Program-made: the position numbers and the translations under genes
Part shown: one piece after another, positions 1 to 35,803 of the stretch
How the letters are laid out: every line of letters begins with the position of its first letter
Numbering within the stretch: position 1 is the first letter of the stretch
Notes under the pieces: generated by a model
Told to the model about the DNA's origin: nothing
The model's input: only the letters and a program-made list of their open reading frames with translations
The model's database searches: none
Sequence record: NC_073051.1
Length of the DNA stretch: 37,268 nucleotides
Direction: 5' to 3' (one strand)
Origin: Escherichia phage PEC14

Positions 1-1042
1 TCATTGCTTCTCTTTCGATGCGGAAGGTGGTGAAGCCTCTAACCAGCGCAAAGAAGCATTGCAGATTAAATACGAGCACGACCTGGACAAGCTGCACATT
101 ATCGACCTGCAGTCTCGCGGCTGGGATATCACCAGCAAGTCCGGTTTGCGCGAAGTTATCAGCTTTATCAACCGCACCGCTAACGGCGAACCTGTTGGCC
201 TGGTGGCGTTCGACTCACTCAACCAGACTGTTGCGCTGCGGTCCGCCGATGCTAAACCGTTTGACGAGAACAACGCCAGCGATATGGGTGAAGTAGTCAA
301 AGCGCTGAAAGCCATTGCGGAAAACACGGGGGGCAGTGCGGGCGTCATCCACCACCCGGCGAAGGGTGCAAACGGCAGCAGAACCCCACGCGGATCCGGC
401 GCACTGCATGGCGCTGTCGATTCCGCTTTCTTCCTGGAACAGCCGGACGACAACCAACCAGGCCAATTGAACCTGTATCACGAAAAATCACGTAACGGTA
501 TCAAGCAAGCGCCGCGTGGCTTCGTCCTGCTCAAGTGCAAGGTGAAGGTGGATCTCCGCAAGTCAGAAGCGTTCGAGGCGCACCAGTCCACCAGCACCGG
601 TCCGGACTTCGGAGACGTAGTTGCCGGTTGGGACGTCAAACCAATTGCGTCCACCCCGCGCGACGAGACTTTATACCTCGTACCGGTCGCCCTGGCACCG
701 TTCGCTATAGAACAGGCGAAGGCCGCAGGAAAAGCCGCAGTTAAGGAAGAGAACACCGCCGGACCGCGCACCGAAAAAGAAAAGGTACTTTACGCGGCCC
801 TGGAAAAACTGATGGAAGATAACCCGGACCATACTGGTTTCAGTAAATCGGCAATTGTCCGCCAGGCTGGACTCGCGAAGGGTGGCACTTCGACGAAGGC
901 AATAGACGATATGGTCGAGCGCGGCGTGATTGGTTTCTATACAGACCCGCACACCGGGGCCATATATGGGTCATCGAATTTAGTCATTAAATCGGATATC
1001 CCCATTACACTTTCTGCGACCGATGACGACCTGAAAGATTAA
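1..1042 (+). CDS. replicative primase/helicase-type ATPase, C-terminal portion (gene begins upstream of window)
   Basis: Frame of track ORF 59..1042 stays open back to nt 2 with no stop; TTG at 59 is not a credible start. RecA-fold/AAA_25-like signature VIHHPAKGANGSRTPRGSGALHGAVD seen in translation. Confidence 0.5.
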   Translation, partial: HCFSFDAEGGEASNQRKEALQIKYEHDLDKLHIIDLQSRGWDITSKSGLREVISFINRTANGEPVGLVAFDSLNQTVALRSADAKPFDENNASDMGEVVKALKAIAENTGGSAGVIHHPAKGANGSRTPRGSGALHGAVDSAFFLEQPDDNQPGQLNLYHEKSRNGIKQAPRGFVLLKCKVKVDLRKSEAFEAHQSTSTGPDFGDVVAGWDVKPIASTPRDETLYLVPVALAPFAIEQAKAAGKAAVKEENTAGPRTEKEKVLYAALEKLMEDNPDHTGFSKSAIVRQAGLAKGGTSTKAIDDMVERGVIGFYTDPHTGAIYGSSNLVIKSDIPITLSATDDDLKD

Positions 1043-1052
1043 ATTTTGCGCG

Positions 1053-1116
1053 CATTGGTTGCCATTTTGAGTGTTTTTAGCCGGTCGCATTGGTTGCCGT
1101 GTAGTGTGAATATAAT
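1053..1116 (+). promoter_or_regulatory. two copies of CATTGGTTGCC (1053-1063, 1088-1098) followed by TATAAT at 1111-1116
   Basis: Motif read directly; belongs to the ATTGGTTGC family recurring in intergenic regions of this window. Confidence 0.35.
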
Positions 1117-1149
1117 GCATAGTTATGCAATAAAACTGCATAAAGTAAG

Positions 1150-1310
1150 CGGGACAAAAAGCGGGACAGACCAGGGGCGGGACAAAGCGGGACAGCACCC
1201 CTGTCCCGCCCCGGATGACGCGGCCTGGCGGGGAGCGGGACAGGCGGGACAAAGCCCAGTCTTTCAGACTAGACGGGGGTCATTGGCCCCCCTCGTCTGA
1301 GACTGAATAA
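1150..1310 (+). repeat. copy 1 of ~160-bp duplicated element: CGGGACA heptamer array (1150-1200), 35-bp divergent core, 75-bp conserved block (1236-1310) with long imperfect palindrome 1257-1305
   Basis: Direct comparison with 17710-17870: 51-bp block identical except one base, 75-bp block identical, spacing preserved. Confidence 0.85.
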
Positions 1311-1459
1311 AATCCGGGATTGCATAATACACGGCAGCACATTGGAAATCGCGGTCGTCGCTGAACTAGGCAACCAATGCGAGATGCAGAACGGGGTGTG
1401 AAAAATGCAGTTTGCAGTCACAGCAGATAGCGATCAACTTTTTCATGCGCATGATTAAT

Positions 1460-1493
1460 ATTGGTTGCATCCATGCCAGCACCCTGCTAGATT
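1460..1493 (+). promoter_or_regulatory. candidate promoter ATTGGTTGCAT-N17-TAGATT upstream of early gene block
   Basis: TTGCAT at 1465-1470, 17-bp spacer, TAGATT at 1488-1493; about 30 bp upstream of ATG 1522. Confidence 0.4.
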
Positions 1494-1521
1494 GGTCGCA
1501 CACCAACATGAGGACTGAACG

Positions 1522-10806: not shown

Positions 10807-11571
10807 TTAGCGCGGAATGCCGCAAATCTCGTTGAGTGTTTTCACATCCAGCGCCACCGCCGTGGATTTTGGCTTGTCCGGGTATGGGATGAATTGCTCA
10901 ACTTCAGGCCATGCCTTAATCAGCTTCTTGTCAGTATTGTGCAGGTCCAGTACACCGGTAACGGTGAGTTTGAACGCATCATACTTCGCGCGCAACTCGC
11001 GACGGGCCTTGTCGTTGCGGTCCAGGCGCTTACAGAAATCATGATCCGCCGGGAAATCTGCACGGCAGCGTGGCTTATAGATCGGCAGCGCTTTCCCGTC
11101 CTCGTCCACTTCACACACTGAAGCCAGCATAACTTCTTCAAACCCCGGTACGATATCGCCGAGATCGGGAGATAGCTTATTCATGTATTTATATTCCCAG
11201 TATCCGCGATGTACGCGGTATTGGTGGCCGTCACCGCTCAAGGATAAGGTGCGAACATTTCCGCCTGCGTTGATTTCGAAAGTGGCGTCGTAAACGCTGC
11301 CGATACCTTTCGGGCGGTCGGTGTTATAACTATATGTCGCCTTGTTGGTGTAGACGCAGACGCCGTACATCTGCGACGGGTCATCGCTGATTGCCTCGAT
11401 ACGCTCGCGTAGCGCGGAGAATGTGCGAATGCCGTCCGGCATACAGTCCAGCGTGATTGCGTACGCCAGATCGCGTGAGTCCATCATGATTGTTTTGGCT
11501 TCGGTAGCGATTTCGTGGTCGCGCAGGATGTTAGCCAGGATCTGATTTTTAATATCTTTCGTCAGTCTCAT
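10807..11571 (-). CDS. hypothetical protein (254 aa), minus-strand insertion in head module
   Basis: ATG with GAGGA SD 8 nt upstream; no motif recognised. Confidence 0.6.
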   Translation of the reverse strand: MRLTKDIKNQILANILRDHEIATEAKTIMMDSRDLAYAITLDCMPDGIRTFSALRERIEAISDDPSQMYGVCVYTNKATYSYNTDRPKGIGSVYDATFEINAGGNVRTLSLSGDGHQYRVHRGYWEYKYMNKLSPDLGDIVPGFEEVMLASVCEVDEDGKALPIYKPRCRADFPADHDFCKRLDRNDKARRELRAKYDAFKLTVTGVLDLHNTDKKLIKAWPEVEQFIPYPDKPKSTAVALDVKTLNEICGIPR

Positions 11572-11609
11572 TTTTGTGTCCTCATGTTGGGGCTTTCGCC
11601 CCGTTTGGT

Positions 11610-17549: not shown

Positions 17550-17552
17550 CGA

Positions 17553-17870
17553 AGCGGGACAGGCGGGACGTCCCGTTTTGTCCCGCCACCATTAAACTGC
17601 ATATATACTCACTACCAGTGCATAAACTAAAAGCGGGACAGGGGTGCTGTCCCGATCTGTCCCGCCCCTTAAAAGTGAATAGCTAAGCGGTTTTTCTGCA
17701 TAAAACAAACGGGACAAAAAACGGGACAGACCAGGGGCGGGACAAAGCGGGACAGCACCCTGTCCCTGCCAGTGCTGCCGCGGGTTTTAGCCGATCGGGA
17801 CAGGCGGGACAAAGCCCAGTCTTTCAGACTAGACGGGGGTCATTGGCCCCCCTCGTCTGAGACTGAATAA
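17553..17870 (+). repeat. copy 2 of duplicated element plus extended CGGGACA heptamer array (direct and inverted copies) between chaperone and tape measure genes
   Basis: About 15 CGGGACA copies; 17710-17760 and 17796-17870 match 1150-1200 and 1236-1310. Confidence 0.85.
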
Positions 17871-17933
17871 GGTTTGTTTTAAATTCGCTGATACAATGAC
17901 CGACGGCAACTGCATAAAAAGGGGGACTGCATA

Positions 17934-21215: not shown

Positions 21216-22000
21216 ATAAACTCTATCGTGAAGCGACGCGCTTTGACCCATCGGGCCGCGTTCGCCTGATTCACATTGACGCGCAGGACGTGGAACCCGG
21301 CGACGGCGCGATCGGCGCGGGGCACCACTATTTTCACTACTGCTTTATTCCGCACACTGCCGAGGATATTGCTGCCGCTGGGGGTGACGAGGATAAGCTA
21401 AAACCTAAATCAATCTTCTTCGGCGGGCAGGAGTTCGAATTCTGGCCCTTCGATCTGTCGGGCCTTAACTTCTCCACATCAACGGCAGCAGAACCGCAGC
21501 TGACCATTGTCGATATTGGCGGAATTATCACCCGGCTGTCGCTGAATCACGACCAGCTACTGGGCGCGAAGGTTGAGATCATTGATACGTTCGCGAAGTT
21601 CCTGGACAACGGGACAGATCCAGACCCGACGCAGAAACGAGTTCAGGAGTATTACATCGACTCGCAGGTCGGGCGCAATCCGGGCAAGCAAATCACCTTC
21701 GCACTATCCTCACCTGCGGATATGGAAGGGCAGGTCGTACCACGTCGCCAAATCATGAATATGTGCGAATGGGCGCTCAACGGGAAGTACGCCAGCGGGG
21801 ACGGGTGCACCTGGAACCTTGCGAAGCCTGGTATCAAGTATTACGACGAGCGAGGTAATGAAGTCATCGCGATGAACATGGACCGATGCGGCGGCTGTTT
21901 GTCCGACTGTTATCTTCGATTCGGGCAAGGGCTTGCGGACCCTAAAGCGGCGGTGCTGGACTTCGGCGGCTTTCCGGGGTCCAGATTAATTAAGGGGTAG
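21212..22000 (+). CDS. minor tail protein L-like
   Basis: ATGA overlap with upstream gene; C-terminal cysteine cluster (CEW...C...CGGC...C) as in Fe-S binding gpL-type proteins. Confidence 0.7.
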   Translation: MNKLYREATRFDPSGRVRLIHIDAQDVEPGDGAIGAGHHYFHYCFIPHTAEDIAAAGGDEDKLKPKSIFFGGQEFEFWPFDLSGLNFSTSTAAEPQLTIVDIGGIITRLSLNHDQLLGAKVEIIDTFAKFLDNGTDPDPTQKRVQEYYIDSQVGRNPGKQITFALSSPADMEGQVVPRRQIMNMCEWALNGKYASGDGCTWNLAKPGIKYYDERGNEVIAMNMDRCGGCLSDCYLRFGQGLADPKAAVLDFGGFPGSRLIKG

Positions 22001-28040: not shown

Positions 28041-28074
28041 AGTATTACACCGCTCGATCAAGAATGCAACCAAT
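28041..28074 (-). promoter_or_regulatory. candidate promoter ATTGGTTGCAT-N17-AATACT driving lipoprotein operon
   Basis: Motif on minus strand in the divergent region between lipoprotein and fibre genes. Confidence 0.35.
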
Positions 28075-28090
28075 TTACGAGGATTTAGCT

Positions 28091-29923
28091 ATGGCAGCGG
28101 GTACACTATCCGTAACGAATAACAGCAAGGCGGTTGTCGGGGTAGGCACGACGTTTACCGCGGTTAAAGCCGGAGACTTCTTATCGCTGGTAGTGGGGCA
28201 AGTACCCTACACTGTTGCGATCGCGTCCGTAGAAAGCGACACCGCGATTACGCTTGTGCTGCCGTTCGACGGACCCACGGCAACTGGCCTCGCGTGGGAT
28301 GGCGTTAAGCGCGATACCATGTCGCTGGCAACGATGGGCGTAACAGTACAGGCGCAGAAAGCGTTGCGCTTGATGATCGCGGACGAAAACAACTGGCGCG
28401 CAATCTTCGGAGACGAGGAAGAAATCGCGGTAACGCTGCCGAACGGGCAAGTTATGCAGGGTATGTCGTGGGGCTATCTGTCGCAATTGCTGAAGGAAGT
28501 TGACCCCGTTGAAATGCGCAACCTGCAACAACAAGCCGCGGCATCTGAAGCAGCAGCGCTGGTATCGCGTAATGAGGCCGAAGGCTTCAAGAACGATACC
28601 AATACCATCAAGACGCAGACCAACCAGATTAAGGCAGATACGCAGGCTATCCGCGACGCCACCAATACCATCAAGACGCAGACCAACAAGATTAAGGCAG
28701 ATACGCAGGCCATCAAAGACCAGACGAACCAGATCAAGACTGACACCGGCGTTATGAGGGACCAGGCCAACGCTGCGAAGACTGACGCGCAAGCTGCCAG
28801 CGCAGCCGCGCAGGGATTCCGCGATCAGGCCGAGGAGTGGGCGCAAAGCGTTAACGCGGATAACCTGCTAACAAAATCCGGCAACCTGGCAGGGCTTGCG
28901 GATAAATCGGCGTCGTGGAAGAACCTTATGCCTGCGGGGCCGCTGCGAATTGGGGCGCACCCCGTTGCGGACCTGGATGCCGCGACCCGGAAATGGACGC
29001 TGGAGCGTTTTACCAAAGGCGTGGCGGAGTCGTCGTGGACTGTCAGGAAAACCGTCACCACCACACCACAGAACGGCACTGTCGTCCGTGGCGGTGAGGT
29101 GGAATCGAGATATTCCAACCCAACATCTACGCAGTTCGCCCGTCTGTACTCAAGCTCTGTATTTGGTTCTTCTAACGCGGCTGTTGTTGAGGCAGAGGGT
29201 TCTTCCAGGCACGCTTATAAATTCTATGAGGATGGCACAGTTGACTTCCGACAGTCAGGGAAGACCAACCCATTCCGCATGTATACAAATATTGGAACAT
29301 GGAATGGCATAACGGACGCCACGGCATCCAACTTGACAACTAACGGAATGGACAGGGTGGCCATTTCGAGCGGCTCAGATACTCTGGTGCACGGATATTC
29401 TATCGGCGGCACCAAACCTAATGGATATCCAACAAAGGTTGGATATCACATGTATATTCCAGGCAATAATGCATTTGGTATTGCTTGCATGGTAATCGGT
29501 GGGGATAACGGAAAATTTTGCCGTTACTTTTTTGACATTGATGGTCTAATATATGGTTCGACCGATTACGGGAACTTCAGTTATATGAAAAATGGCACTT
29601 CTGACTTACGTGTAAAACACGGCATCGCCCATGTTGGAGTTGACAAATCATACTCTAATATTAAAGGGCTGGAATTTGTAGAGTTCATTTATGATAATGA
29701 CGAACAAAATCGAGTTCGGCATGGCGTGATTGCACAGCAAGCAGAGGTTGTTGAGCCTTTATATGTCAAGACGCGCAAATATGTTGGCAATAATCCAGGA
29801 GAGATTGTGGAGCAGAAGGAACTGGACACTACGCCGATGCTTCTGGATACCATGCATGTTGTGCAGACGTTGATGCAGAAGATCGAGGCTATGGAGGCCG
29901 AGATCGCGGCGCTGAAGAAATGA
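28091..29923 (+). CDS. side tail fibre with C-terminal intramolecular chaperone (peptidase S74-like) domain
   Basis: Start at ATG 28091 with GAGGA SD; heptad-like repeat shaft; C-terminal SDLRVKHGI...coiled-coil ending typical of self-cleaving chaperone domains. Confidence 0.75.
   Translation: MAAGTLSVTNNSKAVVGVGTTFTAVKAGDFLSLVVGQVPYTVAIASVESDTAITLVLPFDGPTATGLAWDGVKRDTMSLATMGVTVQAQKALRLMIADENNWRAIFGDEEEIAVTLPNGQVMQGMSWGYLSQLLKEVDPVEMRNLQQQAAASEAAALVSRNEAEGFKNDTNTIKTQTNQIKADTQAIRDATNTIKTQTNKIKADTQAIKDQTNQIKTDTGVMRDQANAAKTDAQAASAAAQGFRDQAEEWAQSVNADNLLTKSGNLAGLADKSASWKNLMPAGPLRIGAHPVADLDAATRKWTLERFTKGVAESSWTVRKTVTTTPQNGTVVRGGEVESRYSNPTSTQFARLYSSSVFGSSNAAVVEAEGSSRHAYKFYEDGTVDFRQSGKTNPFRMYTNIGTWNGITDATASNLTTNGMDRVAISSGSDTLVHGYSIGGTKPNGYPTKVGYHMYIPGNNAFGIACMVIGGDNGKFCRYFFDIDGLIYGSTDYGNFSYMKNGTSDLRVKHGIAHVGVDKSYSNIKGLEFVEFIYDNDEQNRVRHGVIAQQAEVVEPLYVKTRKYVGNNPGEIVEQKELDTTPMLLDTMHVVQTLMQKIEAMEAEIAALKK
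28598..28723 (+). repeat. in-frame 63-bp tandem duplication in fibre shaft
   Basis: Two adjacent near-identical 63-bp units encoding TNTIKTQTN(Q/K)IKADTQAI... Confidence 0.7.
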
Positions 29924-35760: not shown

Positions 35761-35803
35761 CGTCATATCTCCCAAAAATGGCGGGACAAGCCCGCCATAT
35801 TGA

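What the first reader, a model, noticed from the sequence alone, without database searches (positions are those of the whole stretch)
1150..1310. Second copy of the same ~160-bp element 16.6 kb away, with a conserved frame and a divergent core
1150-1200 matches 17710-17760 (one mismatch) and 1236-1310 is identical to 17796-17870, while the 35 bp between them differ in sequence but not in length. The conserved 75-bp block carries two CGGGACA units and a long imperfect palindrome (1257-1305 / 17817-17865: CAGTCT-tt-CAGAC-ta-GA-c-GGGGG-tcattgg-CCCCC-c-TC-GTCTG-AGACTG) with no T-tract, so it is not a simple terminator. Two copies of a structured element with conserved flanks and a variable centre resemble paired cis-acting sites, for example antitermination-type RNA elements or paired protein-binding sites. 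A third isolated unit GCGGGACAAGCCCGC occurs at 35781-35796.
Basis: seen in the sequence. Interest (0 to 1): 0.7.

Follow-up and report, generated by a model that had tools for sequence, protein, structure and literature searches.

The report
Paired iteron-type phage replication origin regions
The duplicated ~195-bp element is the shared core of two clusters of CGGGACA repeats in a Dhillonvirus coliphage; they most likely are DNA sites bound by the phage's replication helicase-primase (origin-type regions), not an RNA antitermination signal, so this is an uncharacterised example of a known kind of element.

Summary
1150-1200 matches 17710-17760 with one mismatch, 1236-1310 equals 17796-17870, and the 35-bp centres differ.

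The window is a Dhillonvirus, 100% identical to phage PEC9 over the element. Copy 1 lies just after the helicase-primase gene. Copy 2 lies between the tail chaperone and tape-measure genes. Both are present in all ten Dhillonvirus genomes examined.

The repeat unit is RRGCGGGACAR. There are 21 GGGAC-core sites in both orientations, and 18 of the window's 21 exact CGGGACA heptamers fall in these two intergenic regions.

In two samples of viral contigs, dense mixed-orientation CGGGACA arrays sit at the 3' end of primase/helicase genes of several unrelated types. This matches the architecture described for SaPI origins. Two initiator-binding regions per genome are known from SPP1 (oriL/oriR).

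My best reading is paired origin-type initiator-binding regions (confidence about 0.55). Binding and initiation are inferred, not shown.

The RNA antitermination reading has no support. The palindrome arms never vary, so covariation cannot be tested. Rfam gives nothing, and the repeats occur on both strands.

The "third unit" at 35781 is a chance heptamer inside an unrelated hairpin. The Sodalis phage SO-1 record already annotates both repeat regions.

The parts
59..1042 (+). 3' part (326 codons) of the replicative helicase-primase gene. It has a RepA-like AAA_25 ATPase core and a C-terminal ~90-aa domain predicted as a winged helix. This protein is the candidate iteron binder.
Evidence: It corresponds to PEC9_56 in the PEC9 annotation. 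Pfam gives AAA_25 and PHROGs gives phrog_3228, replicative helicase-primase. Foldseek top hits are all winged-helix proteins, but E >= 0.14.
1043..1521 (.). IGR1, the 479-bp intergenic region that holds copy 1. It is equivalent to 'region B' in the Sodalis phage SO-1 annotation.
1106..1148 (.). AT-rich stretch (77% AT over 30 nt) with TGCATA(A/G) motifs, immediately upstream of the iterons. It is a candidate DNA unwinding element.
   Evidence: conserved in the alignment of 19 copies
1150..1194 (+). Four direct iterons with consensus RRGCGGGACAR, starting at 1150, 1162, 1178 and 1188.
1187..1209 (.). Head-to-head iteron pair, GCGGGACAG-CACCC-CTGTCCCGC. An inverted GTCCC follows the fourth iteron in 17 of the 19 copies aligned. 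The spacer ranges from 0 to 7 nt, and the motif is degenerate in two copy-2 sequences.
   Evidence: (I1)
1201..1235 (.). Locus-specific 'core', type 1. It is conserved among the orthologous copy-1 sites of other Dhillonviruses.
1236..1251 (+). Two direct iterons, at 1236 and 1245.
1257..1305 (.). A 49-nt imperfect palindrome. The arms CAGTCTTTCAGACTAGAC and CGTCTGAGACTG are invariant. Only the G-run, loop and C-run vary.
17550..17933 (.). IGR2, the 384-bp intergenic region between the tail chaperone gene (DUF1799) and the tape-measure gene. It holds copy 2 and is equivalent to SO-1 'region A'.
17552..17587 (.). Iteron cluster with orientation ++-- around the palindrome CGGGACGTCCCG, followed by TTTT. 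The equivalent site is annotated as a rho-independent terminator in HK578.
   Evidence: (D13)
17631..17666 (.). Iteron cluster with orientation +--. Together with 17733-17760 it forms a 28-nt inverted repeat (93% complementary) around a 63-nt segment that holds an AT-rich stretch and iterons 1-2.
   Evidence: (D13, I4)
17669..17709 (.). AT-rich stretch with a TGCATAA motif, flanked by iterons that point in opposite directions.
17710..17754 (+). Four direct iterons, the copy-2 counterpart of 1150-1194.
17761..17795 (.). Locus-specific 'core', type 2. Orthologous copy-2 sites differ by a mean distance of only 0.11.
17796..17811 (+). Two direct iterons.
17817..17865 (.). The same 49-nt imperfect palindrome, identical to 1257-1305.
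35778..35798 (.). Not part of the system. This is a small GC hairpin (ATGGCGGGACAAGCCCGCCAT) between two minus-strand genes that happens to contain one CGGGACA.

Best explanation
The element acts as double-stranded DNA. It is the conserved core of two iteron-type, origin-like regions of a Dhillonvirus genome. The heptamer CGGGACA (extended consensus RRGCGGGACAR) is an iteron. There are 7 copies next to the 3' end of the helicase-primase gene (IGR1) and 14 in a second region inside the tail-gene cluster (IGR2). The iterons are direct and inverted, 9-16 bp apart, and adjoin AT-rich stretches.

The proposed mechanism is as follows. The phage's RepA-like helicase-primase recognises the iterons through its C-terminal winged-helix-like domain. 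It assembles on the array, melts the neighbouring AT-rich DNA, and loads itself to start replication. The invariant 49-nt palindrome and the locus-specific cores would be auxiliary sites, for example extruded-hairpin or priming sites, or binding sites for a second factor.

The two regions could be two origins. Alternatively they could be one origin plus a second initiator-binding site that cooperates with it or traps forks, as proposed for SPP1 oriL/oriR and P4 ori/crr.

Shown here: the anatomy of the element, its conservation, the concerted evolution of its flanks, and the cross-phage linkage of such arrays to primase/helicase genes. Inferred: who binds the iterons, that replication starts there, and what the second copy does.
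For: (1) 18 of 21 CGGGACA heptamers lie in 865 bp of the 37-kb window, in both orientations.

(2) Copy 1 starts 108 bp after the stop codon of the helicase-primase gene.

(3) In the first IMG/VR scan, the helicase-primase was the only PEC9 protein that repeatedly matched the non-Dhillonvirus contigs carrying CGGGACA arrays: 12 loci, against at most two for any other protein. In those loci the array lies at or overlapping the gene's 3' end.

(4) Arrays also adjoin replication genes of other architectures. They lie at the 3' end of Toprim+D5_N+DUF5906, Zn-ribbon primase+Toprim, AEP+PriCT_2+AAA and DUF927 genes. They lie on the 5' side of a DUF5906 helicase gene in L048/L069.

(5) The association was replicated in a second sample. 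29 of 101 loci hit by CGGGACANNCGGGACA carry mixed-orientation arrays of at least 6 copies. At least 20 of those 29 have a primase-helicase homologue with the array at its 3' end. Composition-matched control heptamers gave 2/120 and 4/120 such arrays.

(6) In Rhizobium phage 16-3, an array of CGTGACA (one base different) begins at the stop codon of the RepA-like p101 gene.

(7) This is the architecture described for SaPI origins: 6-12 short iterons immediately downstream of rep, an AT-rich centre, iterons facing both ways, and a Rep C-terminal winged helix that binds them (PMC9371898).

(8) SPP1 has two similar initiator-binding origins, one in the initiator gene and one in an intergenic region that interrupts the late genes (PMC6316719).

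The best fold matches are all winged-helix DNA binders.

(10) Relatives with a diverged recognition helix (Hafnia phage TS33, 44% identity) have different repeats and no GGGACA after the gene.

(11) Both copies are kept in all ten Dhillonvirus genomes. The flanks evolve in concert while the cores stay locus-specific.
Against: There is no experimental evidence for binding or initiation. The winged-helix assignment rests on low-confidence models (mean pLDDT 46-59) and non-significant fold matches (E >= 0.14).

The Dhillonvirus C-terminal domain shows no detectable homology to the C-terminal domain shared by most other CGGGACA-linked AAA_25 initiators (hmmsearch; hhalign probability 0.3%). A common binder therefore cannot be argued from sequence.

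A small HTH protein encoded just upstream of the helicase gene is an alternative binder. In IGR1 the AT-rich stretch is not flanked by opposed iterons as it is in SaPIs. GC skew follows transcription and does not locate an origin. The array-bearing contigs were retrieved with a pattern built from the motif itself, and the controls were only two heptamers. Both copies lie on the coding strand of long operons, so a transcript-level role is not excluded.
Confidence: 0.55

Rival explanations
1. It is an RNA element in the long rightward transcripts. The two hairpins of each copy would act on RNA polymerase or on the transcript, through put-like processive antitermination, RNA processing or stabilisation, or attenuation.
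For: Both copies lie in the same orientation as the flanking genes. Each folds into two stable hairpins: -79.7 kcal/mol (z = -2.85) and -79.3 kcal/mol (z = -4.62). Copy 2 follows terminator-like hairpins at 17552-17587. The palindrome is strictly conserved.
Against: There is no Rfam match at any threshold apart from spurious microRNA-type hairpin hits. No compensatory substitution exists, because the stems are invariant, so structure-specific selection is not demonstrated. Bulges and the C-C mismatch are conserved too, which points to sequence recognition rather than structure. The repeat unit occurs on both strands and in symmetric arrays. In other phages the arrays track primase/helicase genes, including on the 5' side of one. 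The palindrome has no T-tract.
Confidence: 0.12
2. The arrays are operator or activator sites for a phage transcription factor that switches on the late operons. The small HTH protein encoded before the helicase gene is one candidate. Under this reading the arrays are unrelated to replication.
For: IGR1 is the boundary between the replication genes and the lysis/structural genes. Promoter-like sequences lie just downstream of each copy: ATTGGTTGCAT-N17-TAGATT at about 1460-1495 and TGATACAAT at 17889-17897 (seen in the sequence). An HTH protein is encoded nearby.
Against: The HTH protein is not found in the other array-bearing contigs, whereas a primase/helicase is. Arrays at gene 3' ends in many unrelated phages are hard to explain as promoter control. 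A different motif, ATTGGTTGC, marks promoter-like regions across this genome. The sigma-70 scan finds nothing in the element itself.
Confidence: 0.15
3. It is a packaging signal (pac/cos) recognised by the terminase.
For: Several GenBank records begin or end at these regions. The PEC9 record ends 100 bp after copy 1. The Maverick and Kente records break inside copy 2.
Against: The break points differ between records. They are what assemblers produce at a 195-bp repeat; Maverick even carries an overlapping terminal duplication. The terminase genes lie 4.5 kb away. Two cut sites 16.6 kb apart would fragment the genome. The cross-phage linkage is to helicases, not terminases.
Confidence: 0.03
4. 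It is a selfish or recombination-only repeat (MITE-like, or a gene-conversion hotspot) with no function for the phage.
For: The flanks of the two copies evolve in concert. Phage SM_S22 has a type-2 core copied into locus 1 as a partial tandem duplication.
Against: Both copies sit at fixed positions in all ten genomes, and both cores are conserved. No terminal inverted repeats or target duplications were seen, and there are no extra copies elsewhere.
Confidence: 0.05

Closest known systems
SaPI (staphylococcal pathogenicity island) ori with Rep / Pri-Rep self-loading helicases
   Same: Both have short iterons (5-7 nt) in 6 or more copies, immediately downstream of the initiator-helicase ORF, pointing in both directions around AT-rich DNA. 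The initiator is a helicase, sometimes fused to a primase, with a C-terminal winged helix (PMC9371898).
   Different: SaPI Reps are pre-sensor-II-insert AAA+ or SF3-type helicases, not AAA_25/RepA-like. The iteron sequences differ. SaPIs have a single ori. In IGR1 here the AT-rich stretch lies on one side of the array, and a 49-nt palindrome and a GC-rich core are added. Binding is unproven here.
Bacillus phage SPP1 oriL / oriR with origin-binding protein gp38
   Same: SPP1 is a roughly 44-kb lytic siphovirus with two similar regions of direct repeats plus AT-rich DNA. One is at the initiator gene. The other is in an intergenic segment that interrupts the late structural genes. Both are bound by the initiator. 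The second is proposed to stall forks and trigger the theta-to-sigma switch (PMC6316719; abstract of PMC3485210, listed).
   Different: In SPP1 the initiator (gp38), loader (gp39) and DnaB-type helicase (gp40) are separate proteins. oriL lies inside gene 38 rather than after it. The repeats are unrelated in sequence. No fork-trap evidence exists here.
Satellite phage P4 ori / crr with the alpha primase-helicase (from my own knowledge: Flensburg & Calendar 1987; Ziegelin et al. 1993; not checked in the library)
   Same: P4 has one multifunctional primase-helicase with a C-terminal winged-helix origin-binding domain. It binds a short octamer (TGTTCACC) repeated in direct and inverted orientation at two separate cis-acting regions several kb apart, and both are needed.
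   Different: Alpha is a Toprim plus SF3 (D5-type) protein, not RepA-like. One array-bearing contig here (L042) does have that architecture. The iteron sequence differs. Whether both Dhillonvirus regions are required is unknown.
'Region A' and 'region B' repeat_region features in the Sodalis phage SO-1 RefSeq record (NC_013600.1)
   Same: These are the orthologous loci (11214-11597 and 40178-40657). They are described there as direct, inverted and palindromic repeats with mutual similarity.
   Different: This is an annotation only. None of the 40 Dhillonvirus records listed annotates the element.
Rhizobium phage 16-3, array downstream of gene p101 (uncharacterised as far as I could find)
   Same: A RepA-like AAA_25 primase-helicase gene is followed, from its stop codon, by about 18 copies of CGTGACA in both orientations with AT-rich spacers and a terminal GC hairpin.
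   Different: The iteron differs at one base. The p101 C-terminal domain belongs to the K-x-F-x-R-A family, which is not detectably related to the Dhillonvirus C-terminal domain. Only one region was examined.
HK022 put / lambda nut antitermination RNA sites
   Same: There are two copies per genome, each with stem-loops, in the transcribed orientation.
   Different: No sequence or structural homology was detected, there is no covariation, the repeats are on both strands, and the linkage is to replication genes rather than to early promoters.

Membership tests
Iteron-type origin adjacent to a self-loading initiator-helicase (SaPI-like / P4-like) | Six or more short repeats clustered within a few hundred bp, in direct and inverted orientation | tested here: met
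   There are 7 sites in IGR1 (++++-++) and 14 in IGR2, with spacing of mostly 9-16 bp.
Iteron-type origin adjacent to a self-loading initiator-helicase (SaPI-like / P4-like) | Location immediately downstream of (or within the 3' end of) the initiator/helicase gene | tested here: met
   The first iteron of copy 1 is 108 bp after the helicase-primase stop codon. The same arrangement is seen in at least 20 of 29 plus about 12 further array-bearing viral loci. Copy 2 is distal, like SPP1 oriR or P4 ori.
Iteron-type origin adjacent to a self-loading initiator-helicase (SaPI-like / P4-like) | AT-rich unwinding region flanked by iterons pointing in opposite directions | tested here: inconclusive
   IGR2 meets this: iterons at 17648/17658 (-) and 17710-17748 (+) flank the AT-rich 17669-17709 (I4, 71). 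In IGR1 the AT-rich stretch 1106-1148 has iterons on one side only.
Iteron-type origin adjacent to a self-loading initiator-helicase (SaPI-like / P4-like) | Initiator carries a sequence-specific DNA-binding (winged-helix) domain | tested here: inconclusive
   The C-terminal domain is predicted as H-H-H(-b-b) with pLDDT 64-79. All top Foldseek hits are winged-helix proteins, but E >= 0.14. There is no Pfam or PDB sequence match.
Iteron-type origin adjacent to a self-loading initiator-helicase (SaPI-like / P4-like) | Initiator binds the iterons, and replication initiates there | not testable with these tools
   This needs EMSA or footprinting, an ori-plasmid assay, or marker-frequency sequencing.
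Processive antitermination RNA (HK022 put type) or nut-type site | Conserved RNA secondary structure supported by compensatory changes | tested here: inconclusive
   37 instances gave 13 variants. The outer stems are invariant, and variation is confined to the G/C-run lengths and the loop. This is neither support nor refutation.
Processive antitermination RNA (HK022 put type) or nut-type site | Similarity to a described RNA family | tested here: not met
   Rfam 15 gathering scan of the window gave 0 hits. Permissive scans of both IGRs gave only sub-threshold microRNA or scaRNA hairpin matches.
Processive antitermination RNA (HK022 put type) or nut-type site | Strand-specific element just downstream of a promoter, allowing readthrough of downstream terminators | not testable with these tools
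   No transcript maps are available. The repeat unit itself is not strand-specific.
Intrinsic (rho-independent) terminator | GC-rich hairpin directly followed by a T-tract | tested here: not met
   The 49-nt palindrome is followed by AATAAAATCC in copy 1 and AATAAGGTTTG in copy 2, and the scan does not call it. The separate palindrome at 17564-17575 followed by TTTT does look like a terminator, and HK578 annotates it as one.
Two-site initiator-binding arrangement (SPP1 oriL/oriR, P4 ori/crr) | Two separate regions with the same repeats, kept together across relatives | tested here: met
   Both copies are present in 10 of 10 Dhillonvirus genomes, from SO-1 to LM40P1. In the search every matching record had at least two matching places.
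Two-site initiator-binding arrangement (SPP1 oriL/oriR, P4 ori/crr) | Both regions bound by the same initiator, with functional interplay between them | not testable with these tools
   This is inferred only from the shared iterons.

The most novel reading that the evidence does not exclude
CG(G/T)GACA arrays may define a widespread, so far undescribed class of phage replication origin. It would be used by at least five unrelated primase/helicase architectures: AAA_25/RepA-like, Toprim+D5/SF3, DUF927, AEP+PriCT_2+AAA, and Zn-ribbon+Toprim. That would imply either an exchangeable origin-binding module or a conserved host factor that reads the motif. Within Dhillonviruses, the second copy inside the tail operon, with its own conserved core, would be a dedicated second site (fork trap or looping partner) that controls the switch in replication mode.
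Probability: 0.2. Interest if true: 0.65.

Novelty: new member of a known kind. Interest (0 to 1): 0.42.

Why it matters
Dhillonviruses are common coliphages. They are in the BASEL collection and appear in many therapy-oriented isolates, yet their replication control is unstudied.

Locating the probable origin regions gives concrete targets. These include engineering (what must be kept in cis), interpreting defence systems that sense replication, and explaining why assemblies of these phages break at two places.

The wider pattern offers a simple rule for predicting origins in uncultivated phage genomes: short heptamer arrays at the 3' end of primase/helicase genes of several unrelated types, far more often for CGGGACA than for control heptamers. 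It also raises the question of why the same motif recurs.

Tried and rejected
- **Rfam.** I scanned the whole window at gathering threshold and both IGRs at permissive E-values. Nothing meaningful came back.
- **Covariation.** The test of the palindrome is impossible because both arms are invariant in 37 instances.
- **Promoter and terminator scans.** Neither scan calls anything inside the 195-nt element.
- **GC skew.** It follows gene orientation and does not mark an origin.
- **The search for homologous proteins.** The C-terminal domain gave one fragment and the 326-aa fragment gave seven hits. This was too shallow for a confident structure.
- **Shared C-terminal domain.** I looked for a domain common to Dhillonvirus and the other CGGGACA-linked initiators with hmmsearch and hhalign. 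No relation was found, so a common binder cannot be claimed.
- **Kagunavirus.** The relative with a 35%-identical helicase has no obvious repeat array after the gene.
- **Depletion of GGGAC elsewhere in the window.** The effect is mild (32 observed against 42 expected) and not convincing.
- **Literature.** Searches for Dhillonvirus promoters, repeats or origins, for the SO-1 genome paper, and for P4 crr found no description of these regions. A raw search for the heptamer was uninformative.
- **SO-1 note.** The full text of the SO-1 annotation note could not be retrieved.

Full report
**1. Observation**

All coordinate claims hold.
- 1150-1200 vs 17710-17760 differ at one base (1161).
- 1236-1310 and 17796-17870 are identical over 75 nt.
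- The intervening segments are both 35 nt and differ at 18 positions.

The repeat finder extends the repeat to 195 nt (1116-1310 / 17676-17870, 84% identity).

CGGGACA occurs 21 times in the window against 5.45 expected, and no shuffle reaches 21. Eighteen of the 21 lie in two intergenic regions, IGR1 (1043-1521) and IGR2 (17550-17933). Counting the GGGAC core on both strands gives 7 sites in IGR1 and 14 in IGR2. The consensus is RRGCGGGACAR and the spacing is mostly 9-16 bp.

The isolated unit at 35781 sits in the stem of a small hairpin between two minus-strand genes. With the heptamers at 21610 and 27295, it matches chance expectation.

**2. Genomic context**

The element is 100% identical to Escherichia phage PEC9, and 157 phage records carry it, nearly all Dhillonvirus.
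- The PEC9 annotation shows that 59-1042 is the 3' part of the replicative helicase-primase gene.
- IGR1 separates that gene from small genes, the lysis genes and the terminase genes.
- IGR2 lies between the tail assembly chaperone genes (Phage_TAC_4, DUF1799) and the tape-measure gene. A 384-bp gap is unusual at that position.
- The RefSeq record of Sodalis phage SO-1 already annotates both loci as repeat regions A and B with mutual similarity.
- HK578 annotates only the first palindrome of IGR2, as a terminator.
- I found no paper describing these regions.

**3. Conservation within Dhillonvirus**

All ten genomes fetched, including the divergent LM40P1 and SO-1, carry both copies. The alignment of 19 copies shows four things.
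- The iterons are conserved.
- An inverted GTCCC follows the fourth iteron in 17 of the 19 copies. Its spacing varies from a perfect CGGGACGTCCCG palindrome to a 7-nt spacer, and the motif is degenerate in two copy-2 sequences.
- The 'divergent centre' is really two locus-specific sequences, each conserved among orthologues. Mean ortholog distances are 0.27 (type 1) and 0.11 (type 2), against 0.38 between the two copies of one genome.
- The flanking blocks evolve in concert. The intragenomic copy-1 vs copy-2 distance is 0.06 (left) and 0.08 (right), against 0.11 and 0.12 between copies of different genomes.

In phage SM_S22 locus 1 has acquired a type-2 core as a partial tandem duplication. 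The Maverick and Kente records break inside copy 2, as expected for assemblies meeting a 195-bp repeat.

The 49-nt palindrome was found 37 times in 13 variants. Both arms, including the bulges and the C-C mismatch, never vary. Only the G-run, the loop and the C-run change. Covariation therefore cannot be tested, and the pattern suggests sequence-specific constraint rather than structure alone.

**4. Evidence from elsewhere**

*First scan.* A scan of IMG/VR with a motif-derived pattern returned many non-Dhillonvirus contigs with dense arrays: 8-14 copies in about 200 bp, direct on one side and inverted on the other. The arrays are often centred on an AT-rich palindrome or an alternating purine-pyrimidine tract.

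The helicase-primase was the only PEC9 protein that repeatedly matched those contigs. It matched 12 loci, against at most two for any other protein. In each of these loci the array lies at or overlapping the 3' end of that gene.

*Other architectures.* Pfam shows most of these proteins are AAA_25 (RepA-like), as in PEC9. Arrays also follow genes with Toprim_3+D5_N+DUF5906 (P4-alpha-like), Zn-ribbon primase+Toprim, AEP+PriCT_2+AAA and DUF927 architectures. In L048/L069 the array lies on the 5' side of a DUF5906 helicase gene.

*Second scan and controls.* The pattern CGGGACANNCGGGACA hit 101 new loci, of which 29 had mixed-orientation arrays of at least 6 copies. At least 20 of those 29 had a primase-helicase homologue ending at the array. 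Two composition-matched control heptamers gave 2/120 and 4/120 such arrays.

*A cultured relative.* Rhizobium phage 16-3 has an array of CGTGACA, one base different. It starts at the stop codon of the RepA-like gene p101 and ends in a GC hairpin.

*A closer relative with different repeats.* Hafnia phage TS33 (44% identity) has a diverged putative recognition helix. It carries other repeats (TGTTGGCTG) and no GGGACA after the gene.

**5. The candidate binder**

The last ~90 residues of the helicase-primase have the sequence pattern of a winged helix. Overall confidence is low (mean pLDDT 46 and 59).

Foldseek against the PDB gave no significant hit (best E 0.14-0.19). The top ranks are nevertheless uniformly winged-helix DNA binders: MarR, IclR, LexA and ORC2 WHD.

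The C-terminal domain shared by most other CGGGACA-linked AAA_25 proteins (motif K-x-F-x-R-A) is not detectably related to the Dhillonvirus one.

A 109-aa HTH protein encoded immediately upstream of the helicase gene, outside the window, is an alternative binder.

**6. Interpretation**

The anatomy and the linkage match iteron-type origins served by self-loading initiator-helicases. For SaPIs the literature describes 6-12 penta- or hexanucleotide iterons immediately downstream of rep, an AT-rich centre, iterons facing both ways, and a Rep C-terminal winged helix that binds them (PMC9371898).

Two similar initiator-binding regions in one ~44-kb siphovirus are known from SPP1. One is at the initiator gene and one is in an intergenic segment inside the late genes. 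The second site there is proposed to stall forks and trigger the switch to concatemer synthesis (PMC6316719; abstract of PMC3485210, listed). P4 ori/crr is a further two-site precedent, cited from my own knowledge.

I therefore read the element as the conserved core of two origin-type regions. The iterons would be read by the helicase-primase. The AT-rich stretches (1106-1148; 17589-17633 and 17669-17709) are candidate unwinding elements. The palindrome and the locus-specific cores would be auxiliary sites. Binding, initiation and the role of the second copy are inferences.

**7. Rivals**

- **RNA element.** Its support is the co-orientation with genes and stable folds (z = -2.85 and -4.62). 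Against it, the repeat is on both strands, there is no Rfam hit, covariation is untestable, and the arrays link to helicase genes elsewhere.
- **Transcription-factor operators.** This remains possible, because promoter-like sequences lie just downstream of each copy. But a different motif, ATTGGTTGC, marks promoter-like regions in this genome, and the HTH protein is not shared with other array-bearing contigs.
- **Packaging signal and selfish repeat.** Both readings are weak, for the reasons given under the rival explanations.

**8. Verdict**

The finding is real and conserved. It is best filed as an uncharacterised member of a known kind, iteron-type phage origin regions present in two copies. 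The repeat regions themselves had already been noticed in one annotation. The wider recurrence of CG(G/T)GACA arrays next to unrelated primase/helicase genes is the most novel thread, and it deserves a proper survey.

Noticed in passing
window 1054, 1089, 1370(-), 1460, 2025(-), 11954(-), 28066(-), 31146(-), 31157, 33060(-), 33077(-), 36034(-): A second motif, ATTGGTTGC, occurs 12 times where about 0.3 are expected. Four copies flank copy 1 in IGR1. Most of the others sit next to -10-like hexamers upstream of minus-strand (early) genes, for example ATTGGTTGCACTATAGT and ATTGGTTGCATTATATT. It is probably an early-promoter or operator motif. Hafnia phage TS33 has an analogous TGTTGGCTG motif.
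   Followed up: partly
window 1123(-), 1137, 1321, 17598, 17619, 17697, 17911, 17928: TGCATA(A/T) is enriched in the two intergenic regions, which hold 8 of the 17 copies in the window. It lies in the AT-rich stretches and is conserved in the alignment of 19 copies. It is a 7/9 match to a DnaA box when read as TTATGCA(A/G)T. Its function is unknown.
   Followed up: no
L110 (phage SM_S22) 39444-39769: Locus 1 of SM_S22 carries the type-2 core normally found only at locus 2, as a partial tandem duplication. This is direct evidence of recombination between the two copies.
   Followed up: partly
L104 (Maverick) 42461-42624 + 1-137; L105 (Kente) 44309-44373; L002 (PEC9) record end = window 1420: Several deposited Dhillonvirus genomes start or end inside or next to the repeats. 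Maverick has an overlapping terminal duplication of copy 2. These are probably assembly break points at the 195-bp repeat rather than physical ends.
   Followed up: no
L455 (Rhizobium phage 16-3) 3585-3955: About 18 copies of CGTGACA, in both orientations, start at the stop codon of the RepA-like gene p101 and end with a GC hairpin plus TTTT. This is an apparently unannotated origin-like array in a classical temperate phage.
   Followed up: partly
IMG/VR loci L042, L028/L089, L058/L076, L065: In these loci the arrays consist of 3x TGTCCCGCA and 3x GCGGGACAT flanking a long alternating purine-pyrimidine (CG/CA)n tract with Z-DNA-like composition. They lie next to primase/helicase genes of three different architectures; no recognisable primase/helicase gene was found next to the L065 array.
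   Followed up: no
L002 41397-41726 (just upstream of the window start): A 109-aa protein annotated variously as 'transposase' or 'nuclease inhibitor' has a C-terminal HTH (HTH_23 / sigma-70 region 4-like). It is encoded immediately before the helicase-primase gene. It is a candidate regulator or origin-binding partner.
   Followed up: partly
window 28593-28760: Two and a half tandem copies of a 63-nt unit (89% identical) lie inside the 619-aa gene 28064-29923, whose homologues are annotated as tail fiber protein in HK578 and SO-1. It is an in-frame coding repeat.
   Followed up: no
window 17889-17897 and 1460-1495: Promoter-like sequences lie just downstream of each copy. An extended -10 (TGATACAAT) lies 37 nt before the tape-measure start codon. 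TTGCAT-N17-TAGATT lies before the first gene after IGR1. The consensus scan did not call either.
   Followed up: no
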